Assembly: GCA_963732385.1 (NCBI GenBank)
Contig: CAVSZB010000003.1
Span: forward strand, 320,001 to 384,000
Direction: 5' to 3'
Source: an uncultured bacterium
GTDB taxonomy: Bacteria; Krumholzibacteriota; Krumholzibacteriia; LZORAL124-64-63
Length of the DNA: 64,000 bases
In this document: piece after piece, positions 50,775 to 54,553 of the stretch
Layout of the letters: every line of letters begins with the position of its first letter
How positions within the stretch are numbered: the stretch's first letter is position 1
The notes under the pieces: generated by a model
The model's input: the letters and a program-made list of their open reading frames with translations, nothing else
Told to the model about the DNA's origin: nothing
Databases searched by the model: none
Made by a program: the position numbers and the translations under genes

Positions 50775-50993
50775 GGCCGCCCAGCCAGGGCCCATTTCGG
50801 CCACGCAGTCACATTGCAACCGGGAGGTGGGCCTATCGGAGTTCCTGGCTCCTGACATCGTTATATTCTGAGGCCATATCGCGGACCGTGCTCATTGACT
50901 CGCCTTTCCGCTGCTTCGAGCGGTCCAGCACTTGACACTCGGCTTAGTGAGTCGCTGCGCACTCCCTCAGACTCAAGCGAGGAGACCGGAAGC

Positions 50994-53015
50994 ATGAAAA
51001 AGGTTTTCCTGGGCACCGCCATGTGCGCGTGCCTTCTGATGGCTGGCCTGGCGTCAGCCCAGTTGACCGCCATTGATACGATCCAGACCTACAACCCCGT
51101 CACCGGTGCGCCCACCCCGTTCCCCGTCTCGGGCACCATCGTAACCGTTCAGGGTACTCTTTATGTTCTCAAGGGCAGTTTCAACACCGGTTCCCACTAC
51201 ATCCAGGCTGCCGACGCTGGCATCCAGGTGTTCAACTCCACCCTGAACCTGGGCACGATCGGCGACCTGATCGAGGTCACAGGAGCGGTCGGGGTATTCT
51301 CGAACGAAATCCAGATCACCAACCTGACGAACAACTCGATAATCTCGCATCCGGGCGAGCCGGCCCCGCTCGTCAAGACGATTTCCCAACTGGTGCACTG
51401 GACCGGCGGCGTTCCTCCCAGAGTCAATGACTACGAGAGTGTCGGCAGTTTCGTCCGGGTGACGGGCAACATCGCTACCGCCCCCACGAACAACACCCCG
51501 ACCTCGGACAAGCAGTTCAGCATCATGGCGGACGGCGACACCGTGATCGTTTTCGTCGATAAGGACACCGCCATCGATGTCGGCGCGGTCGCCGTGGGAG
51601 ATCTCTATCAGATCGACGCGGCCTGCGTGCGGTACGGCACAGCGCCGCCCGTGATCGAGCTCAAGCCGCGCTCCCAGAACGACCTGGTCGAAAACCCGGG
51701 GAGTCCGGCTCCCGCCATCGAGAACGTGATCTCTTCGAACTATCATCCGCTGTCGACCACGGCGCTGACCATCAGCGCGGACATCACCAGCGGCGGGGGC
51801 ACGATCAGTGGCGCCACGCTCTACTGGCGCAACAGCGCGGGCGACAGCCTCGGCGCCTACACAGCCACTCCCATGACTTTGGGCACGGCGCCGAAGTACT
51901 CCGGCGTCATCCCGACGCCGCACTCGGGCATCCGGGTGGACTACTACGTCTCGGCGACCGACAACCTGGCGCAGACCACCCTGTCGCCGTCCGCGGCGCC
52001 GACGGCCCACAACGAGCTGGCGGTCGGCTTCACGACGATCCACGACATGCAGTACGTTGACCCGAACGCCGTGAGCCAGTCGTCACCGTACCGCTACAAG
52101 GTCGTCAACCTCGAGGGCATCGTCACCTACGGTACCGGCGAGGCCGGCGCGGTCAGCAAGTTCATCATGGAGACGTCCACGGGCGGCCCGTTCAGCGGCG
52201 CCCTGGTCTACGACGGGACCGGCACCTACGGCGCGGTCTACACGGGGGACCTGGTCCAGGTCGGCGGTCGCATTGACGAGTATCTCGGCTGCACCGAAGT
52301 TCTGCCCTTCCGCAAGCCCGACGGCGTGCTTGCCGGTTCCACCGGCGCTCCGGTCTCCGTGCTCGCCTACAACAGCAAGTTGCCGGCGGCGATGTACGTT
52401 TCGACCCGGGTCCTGGCCGACGGCGTCTCGACCGATGGCAACGGCTACCTGGGCGAGGCCTACGAGACCTGCCGTGTCCGCACGAAGGCCTCGCTGGTGC
52501 TTCCCAACGCCCCTCTTCCCTCCCGCGGTTTCGGGATTACCGACACCGGCGTCCTGGCGGATTCGGTGCGAGTGGTCCCGCTGGTCGACCTCACGTATCC
52601 GCACACCGCGGGTGACTTCGTGGTGGTCGAGGGCTGGATGGATTACAACGGCACGTACATGCTTCGCCCCGTCCGGGACGAGGACATCGCGTACGGCATC
52701 ACCGGCGTCGGCGACACCACGCCGCAGGTGCTGCCCGCGGGCGGTTTTGTCGGCGTGTCTCCGAACCCGTTCAATCCCCGCACGGAGATCGAGTTCGTCC
52801 TGACACGGTCGAATCTGGCCCAGTTGAACATCTACAACCTGCGCGGCCAGCTGGTGCGCTCGTTGGCCAATGGTCACCTGGAAGCCGGGACCTACACGCT
52901 GGTCTGGGACGGGACCGACGAAGCCGGCAACCGCATGGGCAGCGGGACCTTCTTCGCCCGCCTGCGCATCGGCGCCGAGGTCATGCAGGTCCAGAAGCTT
53001 TCGCTCGTGAAGTGA
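50994..53015 (+). CDS. Large secreted protein with repeated OB-fold-like modules and C-terminal FlgD-Ig/secretion CTD
   Basis: Signal peptide; repeated 'GD.I/V.VTG.V..F...QI' modules; C-terminus SPNPFNPRTEI.F...IYNLRGQLVRSL...G.Y.LVWDGTD..G...GSG.FFARL...KLSLVK. Confidence 0.85.
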   Translation: MKKVFLGTAMCACLLMAGLASAQLTAIDTIQTYNPVTGAPTPFPVSGTIVTVQGTLYVLKGSFNTGSHYIQAADAGIQVFNSTLNLGTIGDLIEVTGAVGVFSNEIQITNLTNNSIISHPGEPAPLVKTISQLVHWTGGVPPRVNDYESVGSFVRVTGNIATAPTNNTPTSDKQFSIMADGDTVIVFVDKDTAIDVGAVAVGDLYQIDAACVRYGTAPPVIELKPRSQNDLVENPGSPAPAIENVISSNYHPLSTTALTISADITSGGGTISGATLYWRNSAGDSLGAYTATPMTLGTAPKYSGVIPTPHSGIRVDYYVSATDNLAQTTLSPSAAPTAHNELAVGFTTIHDMQYVDPNAVSQSSPYRYKVVNLEGIVTYGTGEAGAVSKFIMETSTGGPFSGALVYDGTGTYGAVYTGDLVQVGGRIDEYLGCTEVLPFRKPDGVLAGSTGAPVSVLAYNSKLPAAMYVSTRVLADGVSTDGNGYLGEAYETCRVRTKASLVLPNAPLPSRGFGITDTGVLADSVRVVPLVDLTYPHTAGDFVVVEGWMDYNGTYMLRPVRDEDIAYGITGVGDTTPQVLPAGGFVGVSPNPFNPRTEIEFVLTRSNLAQLNIYNLRGQLVRSLANGHLEAGTYTLVWDGTDEAGNRMGSGTFFARLRIGAEVMQVQKLSLVK

Positions 53016-53056
53016 TATGGAACGGCTAGTCAAACGTTGATTAGTGCGCTCCTCGG

Positions 53057-53085
53057 GGGCCCCGGCGACAGCCGGGGCCCTTCTT
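53057..53085 (+). terminator. IS-borne terminator-like hairpin
   Basis: GGGCCCCGGC-GACA-GCCGGGGCCC-TTCTT inside the IS end, just downstream of the CTD gene. Confidence 0.65.
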
Positions 53086-53099
53086 ACGCCTGGTTGTTG

Positions 53100-53260
53100 G
53101 GAGCAGGGACTGCAACGACGGTTGATCAGACTGATATCCGCGGGTTGGTTACCGCACACAATTCTGTCCGTCTCGGGGTGACCTCCGTCTAACACCGCGG
53201 GTCCAGCTCATGGCCTGCCGCATACTTCAAACGAGGATTCCCCTGACCGGTCCCTGCTCC
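53100..53260 (-). ncRNA. Candidate IS110 bridge/seek RNA in the 3' non-coding region
   Basis: Closed by an 11-bp helix GGAGCAGGGAC/GTCCCTGCTCC; contains segments matching the target (TGAAGTA, GTGTTA) and the circle junction (ATATCAG, ATTGTGT). Confidence 0.7.
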
Positions 53261-53270
53261 ACTCAGCGTC

Positions 53271-54386
53271 CTAGTGTTGCTTCGTGGCTGCGACCCACAT
53301 CGCGGCCCACACGAATCCACTCAGTTCACGGGCCACCGCGACGGCGACCTTGTTGCGATGCTTCGTCTTCTCCAGGTGATGGAATCGCCTGCCGAGTCGA
53401 TGCTGGGCCTTCACGGCGATCGCGACCATTTCAGGATCCTGACCCATCCGGCGGCGATCGAGGATCAAGGTCGAGCCTACCCTGTACTGGTAGTGCCAAG
53501 CGGCTTCGACTAGGATCCGTCTTAGGAATGTGTTGCCCGCCTTGGTGATCGAACCACGATGTTGTTGCTCGCCGCTGGAGTGCTCCTTTGACACCAACCC
53601 CGTGTACCCCATCAGCCGGTCCGGGTGACTGAAGCGACGGATGTCTCCGATCTCGGTGACCAACGTCATCGCCGTCAGGGTCTTGATGCCGCGGAAGCAC
53701 TGCAGCGCCTCGACGGTCGCCCGCCAGGGCTCGCGACAGGACCACTGCTCGATCTCGGCGTCGAGCGACCGCTGCTGAGACTCGAGGTACTCCAGGTGGT
53801 CGAGGTCGTAGGCCAGGACCGTCTGCAGCGGGCCCGTCATCTCGCGGCGCAACGTGGCCAGCCAGGCGCGATGCTGCTTCGTCCAATTGCTTTTGGTCCC
53901 GGTGAAACGATGTCCGTGGGTAGCCAGCACCCGGACGATCCGATGCTTGCTGCGCACGATCTGACGCTGCAGCGACAGTCGGCATCGCACGAGCTGGCGT
54001 ACCGCCTCTTGCTCCTCATCTGGTATCGTCACCGCCCGCAGATGGCCGCTGCGATACATGCGCGCCAAGCGCACGGCATCCAGGCGATCGGTCTTGCGGT
54101 GATCGCCCGGGCAGCGGGGGATCAGACTCGGGGCGATCACCTCGCACTGGAACCCATCGTGGTCCAGGGCCCGCTGCAGGACGTAGCCTGCACCCGAGGC
54201 CTCGTAGCATGCCCGCGGGGAGCCCTGCTTGGTCAAGCGGCGGAAGAGCCGGCGAACCGCGTTGAGGTCCCCTGGCAACCGGACAATCTCCGGGATGTCC
54301 TTGTCTCCAAAGAGGATCGCCGCGGTGATGGACTCCTGGTGAACATCCATGCCCACCCAAACGGTCGCTGTGCTATCGTGTGTCAT
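53271..54386 (-). CDS. IS110 family DEDD recombinase/transposase
   Basis: VGMDVH, YEASG, KTDRLDA (DEDD); GIKTLTA..LVTEIGDI.RF, GLVSKEHSSG (Tnp20 Ser), ITKAGN..LR, VAVAREL; frame intact. Confidence 0.97.
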   Translation of the reverse strand: MTHDSTATVWVGMDVHQESITAAILFGDKDIPEIVRLPGDLNAVRRLFRRLTKQGSPRACYEASGAGYVLQRALDHDGFQCEVIAPSLIPRCPGDHRKTDRLDAVRLARMYRSGHLRAVTIPDEEQEAVRQLVRCRLSLQRQIVRSKHRIVRVLATHGHRFTGTKSNWTKQHRAWLATLRREMTGPLQTVLAYDLDHLEYLESQQRSLDAEIEQWSCREPWRATVEALQCFRGIKTLTAMTLVTEIGDIRRFSHPDRLMGYTGLVSKEHSSGEQQHRGSITKAGNTFLRRILVEAAWHYQYRVGSTLILDRRRMGQDPEMVAIAVKAQHRLGRRFHHLEKTKHRNKVAVAVARELSGFVWAAMWVAATKQH

Positions 54387-54515
54387 GGCTGGGTCCTTTC
54401 GTGAGCGGGAGTTTCGGCTCCCTAGTGTCCCTGGTCCGTGCGGACTAACACACGATACCCGAGGGGCCCAGCCGTTCCATTATGTCTAGCGCATTCCGCG
54501 CACGGAAAACGCAGG

Positions 54516-54553
54516 GCGACCCCGGGGGCTTCGGCTCCCGGGGTCGCGTCTTT
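54516..54553 (+). terminator. Native terminator of the CTD gene (possibly bidirectional), displaced by the IS
   Basis: GCGACCCCGGGGGC-TTCG-GCTCCCGGGGTCGC-GTCTTT, 14-bp stem with UUCG loop. Confidence 0.75.

What the first reader, a model, noticed from the sequence alone, without database searches (positions are those of the whole stretch)
53100..53260. Readable bridge/seek RNA apparently programmed against the 'xK-stop' end of secretion-CTD genes
Seen on the minus strand, within an 11-bp closing helix: (1) UGAAGUA (53223-53229) is identical to the empty target top strand TGAAGT|A; (2) GUGUUA (53190-53195) pairs with target TAGCGC using two G:U wobbles, and the two segments overlap on a TA core; (3) AUAUCAG (53131-53137) matches the predicted circle junction exactly; (4) AUUGUGU (53156-53162) matches the other donor side ATTATGT at 6/7 with a wobble. 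Known: IS110/IS1111 recombinases use such non-coding RNAs with target and donor guides, located 3' of the gene in IS1111-like elements. Inference: [C/G]TG AAG TA encodes the typical L/V-K-stop terminus of FlgD-Ig/CTD proteins, usually a large paralog family in such genomes. The IS may use a protein-sorting-signal terminus as a multi-copy safe harbour, a target class I do not know to be described. Caveat: the matches are only 6-7 nt each.
Basis: partly seen in the sequence, partly recalled or inferred. Interest (0 to 1): 0.88.

Follow-up and report, generated by a model that had tools for sequence, protein, structure and literature searches.

The report
Jumping gene aims at secretion-gene stops
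A bacterial jumping gene carries a small guide RNA that steers it into the stop codon of secreted-protein genes and rebuilds that stop codon, so the host protein stays whole; the RNA-guided mechanism is known, but this kind of landing site did not turn up in our literature searches.

Summary
Real. Positions 53100-53260 (minus strand) are the two-loop bridge/seek RNA of a 1474-bp IS110-family element with IS1111 architecture (53014-54487). All 3 copies in the genome sit in the stop codon of different FlgD-Ig/T9SS-type CTD genes ending LVK, antisense, and the element's end rebuilds the stop. Empty alleles of this locus occur in 3 of 4 runs laid. Of 73 homologous insertions with readable flanks, 59 are at CTD stops by HMM, 2 more by eye; 0 of 48 more distant elements are. 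The guides covary with their targets, also with tree control: Lys/non-Lys switches agree in 75 of 77 elements. Corrections: guide 2 reads only the stop plus one base; segment 4 is in the right loop but 3 nt off register; 'xK-stop' is really xK/xR-stop; and the guide match alone (164 sites, 8 at empty CTD stops) does not explain the bias. Unexpected: a second IS lineage targets the stop of another, unnamed C-terminal motif (WGxxKxxYR, 10 of 10). No RNA or activity data. Known mechanism, apparently new target class.

The parts
50895..53015 (+). Host gene, 706 aa, with C-terminal FlgD-Ig / T9SS-type CTD ending LVK; its present TGA stop is made of the shared T plus two bases of the element
   Evidence: PF13860 above cut-off; TIGR04183 21.4 bits, cut-off 23
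53005..53013 (+). Host half of the target (last codons plus shared T at 53013); 53008-53013 is read by guide 1, and T at 53005 (-8) is conserved without a matching guide base
53014..54487 (-). IS110-family insertion sequence with IS1111 architecture, 1474 bp, no duplication beyond one shared base
   Evidence: joint skips 1474 nt
53014..53027 (-). Right end: 3-nt extension plus 11-bp subterminal inverted repeat (53017-53027)
53028..53033 (-). -35 box (TTGACT) of the promoter predicted to form across the circle junction
   Evidence: 17-nt spacer to CATAAT; function inferred
53056..53083 (.). 12-bp GC-rich hairpin in the right end, followed by a short T-rich run on the host strand; possible stand-in terminator
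   Evidence: fold; not called by the strict terminator scan; inferred
53100..53260 (-). Predicted bridge/seek RNA: closing helix, target-binding loop, donor-binding loop
   Evidence: 16 of 29 consensus pairs with two-sided changes; expression not shown
53223..53229 (-). Target guide 1 (UGAAGUA): last five coding bases, shared T and second stop base
53187..53193 (-). Target guide 2 (53193-53190: first base after the stop, and the stop) with a handshake-like extension matching the element's left end (53187 covaries with left-end base +3, 48/74 against 20 shuffled)
53160..53163 (-).
53130..53137 (-). Donor guide for the right end (AUAUCA) plus handshake-like base 53130, which follows the target's penultimate coding base (73/82 against 54 shuffled)
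53271..54386 (-). DEDD recombinase, 371 aa; D14, E62, D100, D103 and the S270-S271-G272 motif invariant in 8 aligned homologues
54470..54487 (-). Left end: 11-bp subterminal inverted repeat (54470-54480), 7-nt extension, -10 box CATAAT (54484-54479)
54487..54490 (+). Original TAG stop of the host gene and first downstream base: the other half of the target
54513..54550 (+). Original terminator-like hairpin of the host gene, displaced 1.47 kb by the insertion
   Evidence: function inferred

Best explanation
The element excises as a circle whose junction forms a sigma-70 promoter (inferred), which transcribes the recombinase and the 3' RNA (inferred from IS1111 elements; not shown here). The target loop pairs with both strands of T-N-AAR-TAR-Y, the last codons and stop of CTD genes (shown by covariation). 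The donor loop pairs with both sides of the circle junction (shown by covariation). Strand exchange at a shared T:A base inserts the element antisense to the host gene; the right end supplies GA, AG or AA after the T, so a stop is rebuilt and the protein and its sorting signal are unchanged (shown in sequence). The RNA reads only about 8-9 bases. A further T at -8, probably read by the protein (inferred), and purifying selection against the remaining intragenic sites (inferred) give the strong CTD bias. A family of about 90 CTD genes supplies many harmless sites, and guides repeatedly retune among Lys, Arg and stop-codon variants.
For: 3 of 3 copies at CTD stops of different genes. Empty alleles in 3 of 4 runs; empty paralogues carry copy B's reconstructed site. 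59 of 73 readable clade insertions at CTD stops by HMM, 2 more by eye; 0 of 48 outgroup insertions. Position-by-position covariation. Tree control: target AAx versus other agrees with the guide in 75 of 77 elements, 17 changes each, 13-14 of 15 independent pairs the same way and none opposite, p about 1e-4; second stop base 71 of 71, 7 of 7 pairs, p 0.016. All four guides fall in the unpaired strands of two internal loops, target-top-strand guide first as in IS1111 seekRNAs. A stop is rebuilt in 85 of 87 clade loci. T at -8 in 59 of 59 CTD sites and 10 of 13 other sites; adding it and a pyrimidine after the stop cuts the genome's sites from 164 to 21, 6 of them empty CTD stops.
Against: No expression, binding or recombination data. 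The RNA-matched motif is mostly not at CTD ends (8 of 164 sites), so the RNA alone does not give the bias. 11 of 73 readable clade insertions are at neither motif class: guide-matching off-CTD sites (L005, L085, L174, L185, L191), apparently retargeted elements (L148, L150, L082, L215) and flanks that do not match their guide (L040, L094). In this element the left-end donor guide matches only 2 of the 4 covarying positions. The right-end/guide pair has only 3 independent pairs, p 0.25. T at -8 is also in 87 of 90 CTD ends generally, so only the few off-CTD sites speak for it as a determinant.
Confidence: 0.88

Rival explanations
1. Same RNA-guided chemistry, but no preference for CTD ends beyond the short motif: the element hits all 164 or so matching sites equally and selection alone removes the insertions inside genes.
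For: 156 of 164 motif sites are not CTD stops; L191 lies inside a GH127-like gene (E 0.0011); four more guide-matching off-CTD sites.
Against: 3 of 3 at CTD stops has probability about 3e-4 if 11 of 167 sites are CTD (my arithmetic); off-CTD sites still mostly carry T at -8; guides switch between Lys and Arg codons while staying on CTD ends, which needs the CTD end to be the site the lineage is tuned to.
Confidence: 0.2
2. The complex also senses gene-end context (terminator hairpin, transcription-linked unwinding), so true gene ends are chosen among matching sites.
For: The guide match is too short for the bias; the window's empty site has a strong hairpin about 25 nt downstream; other IS1111 elements target potentially folded sites such as attC and REP.
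Against: A mid-gene insertion exists (L191); no covariation or conservation beyond the first base after the stop; an extended sequence motif plus selection can account for the counts.
Confidence: 0.1
3. The matches are coincidence or shared ancestry: the element inserted once at a CTD end and spread with its host gene or by recombination among paralogues.
For: Short matches; multi-copy host family; related elements are not independent.
Against: The three copies are 99.7-100% identical in unrelated host genes, with sharp ends; empty alleles exist; covariation survives tree control.
Confidence: 0.01

Closest known systems
IS1111-type elements with seekRNA (ISEc11, ISKpn4, ISPa11, ISPst6; PMC11187229, parts 1-3 of 9 and passages read)
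   Same: 11-bp subterminal inverted repeats with 7-nt left and 3-nt right extensions, 3' non-coding region, junction promoter, top-strand guide before bottom-strand guide, one orientation, natural reprogramming
   Different: Their targets are a short linear site, attC or REP. Here the target is the end of host protein-coding genes and the stop is rebuilt. The recombinase is 371 aa against the 330-350 aa given for IS1111.
IS621 bridge RNA with handshake guides (PMC11208160 passages and section 12; PMC11208158 passages)
   Same: DEDD plus serine recombinase, two internal loops for target and donor, guide extensions that match the non-cognate DNA after strand exchange
   Different: IS621's RNA lies upstream with a 2-nt CT core shared by target and donor. 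Here it lies downstream, only one base is always shared, and the second target guide covaries over just 3 bases.
ISEc21 (PMC11187229, passage)
   Same: IS110-family RNA aimed at conserved codons of a multi-copy gene family
   Different: It targets the catalytic Asp codons of IS3 transposases, inside another mobile element's gene. Here host genes are hit at the stop and the protein is left intact.
IS900 (PMC8141618, passages; the cited title says it targets translation initiation signals)
   Same: IS110-family element aimed at a translation signal shared by many genes (motif CATG-N6-TCTCCTT)
   Different: Start-side, generic signal. Here the stop side of one functional class of genes, read through its last codons.
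Tn7 at attTn7/glmS and integrative elements that rebuild tRNA or gene 3' ends (recalled, no call)
   Same: Harmless insertion at a conserved gene 3' end
   Different: Protein-specified and essentially single-site. Here RNA-specified and spread over a large paralogue family.
ISSfr2-family transposase
   Same: Best named match among the 10 plasmid hits listed, 42.6% identity over 96% of the protein
   Different: Distant; its target and RNA were not examined.

Membership tests
IS110 family (bridge recombinases) | PF01548 plus PF02371 with DEDD and catalytic serine | tested here: met
   (NF033542 239 bits, cut-off 140)
IS110 family (bridge recombinases) | Structured RNA with separate target and donor loops | tested here: met
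   consensus fold of 50 of the 84 elements; guides lie in the loops
IS110 family (bridge recombinases) | Guide-target and guide-donor covariation | tested here: met
   the right-end donor pair has too few independent changes for the tree test
IS110 family (bridge recombinases) | RNA is made, binds the recombinase and is needed for movement | not testable with these tools
   needs RNA-seq, RIP and a recombination assay
IS110 family (bridge recombinases) | Insertion without target duplication beyond a short core | tested here: met
   empty alleles, joint skips 1474 nt with one shared base
IS1111 group | Subterminal inverted repeats of 11-13 bp, 7-nt left and 3-nt right extensions | tested here: met
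   definition
IS1111 group | Long non-coding region downstream of the gene; top-strand guide first | tested here: met
   about 255 nt downstream against about 100 upstream; order
IS1111 group | Promoter formed at the circle junction | tested here: met
   TTGACT, 17 nt, CATAAT in the computed junction; sequence match only, activity untested
IS1111 group | Circular intermediate observed | tested here: inconclusive
   no such joint listed in the contigs of 4 runs; contigs show presence, not absence
IS1111 group | Transposase falls in the IS1111 clade (330-350 aa) | not tested
   no tree with ISFinder references was built; 371 aa is outside the range; best named hit is ISSfr2 family
T9SS type A CTD cargo (target genes) | C-terminal Ig-like CTD | tested here: inconclusive
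   PF13860 above cut-off; TIGR04183 21.4 against cut-off 23
T9SS type A CTD cargo (target genes) | Host encodes T9SS parts | tested here: met
   SprA and PorV over cut-off, PorU 416.8 against 420; other parts not searched, secretion itself not testable

The most novel reading that the evidence does not exclude
Conserved C-terminal sorting signals are a general, undescribed safe-harbour class for RNA-guided transposons. At least two separate recombinase lineages, plus a switch inside one of them, converged on the stop codons of two signal families. The second family (S/T-W/F/Y-G-x-x-K-x-x-Y/F-R-stop; 18 genes here; no NCBIfam model in 7 proteins scanned) is itself an unnamed export or anchoring signal that the element's guide points out. 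Decayed right ends stay behind as the host genes' terminators, so these elements rewrite the 3' ends of secreted-protein genes.
Probability: 0.45. Interest if true: 0.87.

Novelty: new variant of a known kind. Interest (0 to 1): 0.74.

Why it matters
It shows how an RNA-guided transposon with a very short guide can keep many copies without harming its host: it aims at the one stretch that a large family of otherwise unrelated secreted proteins shares at the DNA level, and rebuilds the stop. The clade is also a natural reprogramming series (17 inferred changes between Lys-type and other targets, with the guide following) that maps guide register, wobble tolerance and handshake positions for a 3'-RNA bridge system, for which the papers I read give less detail than for IS621. 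The second lineage flags an unnamed C-terminal motif as a likely sorting signal.

Tried and rejected
Rfam: nothing at gathering level. Sequencing runs: no RNA holder listed. No circle-junction joint listed in the contigs of 4 runs. The strict scan found no promoter in the integrated element and did not call the right-end hairpin a terminator; only 34 of 84 elements have a strong right-end hairpin, so a stand-in terminator is not general. Rejected: that a stop-forming right end evolved for this niche, since all 48 outgroup ends form one too (ATCA 44, CCTA 4) and 25 of 48 outgroup targets have TAG; it looks like a pre-adaptation. The antisense-ORF check of the 15 non-CTD motif sites did not discriminate, because CTD sites also have long antisense frames. 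NCBIfam gave no family for 7 WGxxK-ending proteins; Pfam gave only PPC domains in one of the 7; the ESM Atlas gave unnamed hypothetical clusters at 0.87-0.90, a lead only. Earlier findings of this scan: 3 look-ups, nothing.

Full report
Observation. They lie downstream of a 371-aa IS110-family recombinase on the minus strand (54386-53271; PF01548 and PF02371; NF033542). The element has 11-bp subterminal inverted repeats at 53017-53027 and 54470-54480, with 3-nt and 7-nt extensions, which is the IS1111 layout described in PMC11187229. Joining the ends in a script gives TTGACT, 17 nt, CATAAT, a junction promoter as reported for that group.

The target in this genome. BLAST finds three copies, 99.7-100% identical. 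All three lie antisense in the stop codon of different genes that end in a FlgD-Ig domain and LVK; in each, the element's end turns the shared T into TGA, and the old TAG or TAA sits at the other junction. Contigs from 3 of 4 public runs laid join the two flanks of the window's locus, skipping 1474 nt, with an AAG (X1) or AAA (X4, X5) last codon before TAG; one of these runs may be the window's own source and is then not independent. An HMM grown from the window protein's last 90 residues hit 100 ORFs, 90 with the domain at the C-terminus; 47 end in R and 36 in K. The genome encodes SprA and PorV above cut-off and PorU just below, so these are most likely T9SS-type cargo (inferred).

Homologues. 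From 231 locus records, 135 distinct right ends could be parsed; the rest were duplicates, truncated or had no recognisable end. 87 have recombinases at 55% identity or more, and these form one well-supported clade (79 of the 84 distinct elements had enough protein for the tree). Record titles include Krumholzibacteriota, Eisenbacteria, Latescibacterota, Bacteroidota and Ignavibacteriota. Of the 87, 14 have flanks under 60 nt. Of the other 73, 59 are exactly at a CTD stop by HMM, 2 more look so by eye (L179, L091), 1 is at a second motif (below) and 11 are elsewhere. None of the 48 more distant elements is at a CTD stop.

The RNA. A 50-sequence alignment folds into a closing helix with two arms, each with a large internal loop; 16 of 29 pairs show two-sided changes. 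Guide 1 (53229-53223) follows the target base by base; where the host ends in an Arg codon the guide reads that codon. On the tree, target and guide each change 17 times between AAx and other, agree in 75 of 77 elements, and go the same way in 13-14 of 15 independent pairs with none opposite. Guide 2 covaries with the first base after the stop and with the stop itself (74/74 at the second stop base; 7 of 7 independent pairs), but not further out. The right-end donor guide follows the end in 82/83 and 83/83 elements, though on only 3 independent pairs. Two further positions follow the non-cognate DNA: 53187 the left end and 53130 the target, as the handshake guides of IS621 do (PMC11208158); that reading is an inference.

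What the RNA does not explain. A T at -8, with no matching guide base, is present in 59 of 59 CTD sites and 10 of 13 other sites, including retargeted elements. Requiring it and a pyrimidine after the stop leaves 21 sites, 6 of them empty CTD stops. I infer a protein-read flanking base plus selection against intragenic hits. Off-target insertions exist: L191 is inside a GH127-like gene at a site that mimics the CTD end.

Stop rebuilding. The clade's right ends are ATC, ACT or ATT before the shared base, giving TGA, TAG or TAA; 85 of 87 loci have a rebuilt stop, and the two exceptions are not at CTD ends. All 48 outgroup ends also form a stop and TAG is their commonest target core, so this is better read as a pre-adaptation than as a new invention.

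A second target class. The other intact IS110 in this genome (C6, 41% identity) and its relatives sit at the stop of proteins ending S/T-W/F/Y-G-x-x-K-x-x-Y/F-R in 10 of 10 loci from 7 genomes, with guides that read the Y/F-R codons and stop, with some mismatches (each locus also printed a spurious left-end row, which I dropped). Two members of the main clade, L056 and L138, have switched to the same motif with exactly matching guides. The data reject one clade for all WGxxK-targeting elements (AU p 9e-68) and, more weakly, one clade for both lineages together (p 0.015) (29 rows, groups named after seeing the first tree). The genome has 18 ORFs with this ending. No NCBIfam model hit 7 such proteins; that it is a sorting signal is my inference from its position and conservation.

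Relics. Scoring 80 nt after each gene end against element ends, with 300 other long ORFs as control, finds clear remnants at 4 of 18 WGxxK ends besides the intact copy, and one clear and several weak ones (6 just above the control maximum) at CTD ends besides the three copies. Several keep a GC-rich hairpin followed by a T-rich run, which suggests that element ends can stay as terminators (inferred).

Literature. Eight searches found no paper describing IS110/IS1111 elements that target CTD or sorting-signal stop codons. I read parts 1-3 of 9 and passages of PMC11187229, passages and section 12 of PMC11208160, and passages of PMC11208158, PMC8141618 and 10.64898/2026.10.21.760802 (no mention of FlgD or Krumholzibacteria); PMC12288879 only as a listing. 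I read no supplements; the bridge-RNA papers' tables, ISFinder and subscription journals may hold these elements. Nearest precedents are ISEc21 (conserved codons of IS3 transposases) and IS900 (translation-initiation signals).

Verdict. The element works like a known bridge/seek RNA system and meets the IS1111 architectural tests; its place in the IS1111 transposase clade was not tested. What appears new is the target class, held across several phyla and reached more than once. Expression and activity remain to be shown.

Noticed in passing
G000:C6:54036-55399 (L229/L231) and L232-L240: Second IS110 lineage inserts at the stop of proteins ending in a WGxxKxxYR-type motif, 10 of 10 loci; 18 such ORFs in the genome; no named family found for the motif.
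   Followed up: yes
G000 C8:445413(+), C3:169061(+), C7 minus strand near 1313180; C4, C5 (two) and C7 WGxxK gene ends: Decayed element right ends with hairpins directly after CTD and WGxxK stop codons; possible domesticated terminators.
   Followed up: partly
window 53265-54460, run X2: One contig joins 53265 to 54460 with 10 other letters: a possible mini-element that keeps the RNA and both ends but lacks the recombinase (single contig, 31 letters on the short side, laid at 90% likeness).
   Followed up: no
L215 and L178: Clade members whose guide and target both differ from the CTD type; the empty site looks like a short palindrome, not a gene end.
   Followed up: no
L150 and L082: Two clade members at the same non-CTD site; L082 has lost most of its target loop.
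   Followed up: no
L133, L093, L149: Elements with internal deletions in the RNA (target loop or donor loop) that still sit at CTD stops.
   Followed up: no
L111, L102, L114, L112, L211, L126, L120: An outgroup lineage (47-49% identity; named records are mostly Gemmatimonadota) shares a recurring target flank, possibly a repeat or another conserved gene end.
   Followed up: no
G000:C5:387976-388398: A degenerate, distantly related IS110 fragment (31% identity).
   Followed up: no
window 50895-53015: The host protein has a weak ExeM/NucH-like stretch but no confident catalytic family.
   Followed up: no
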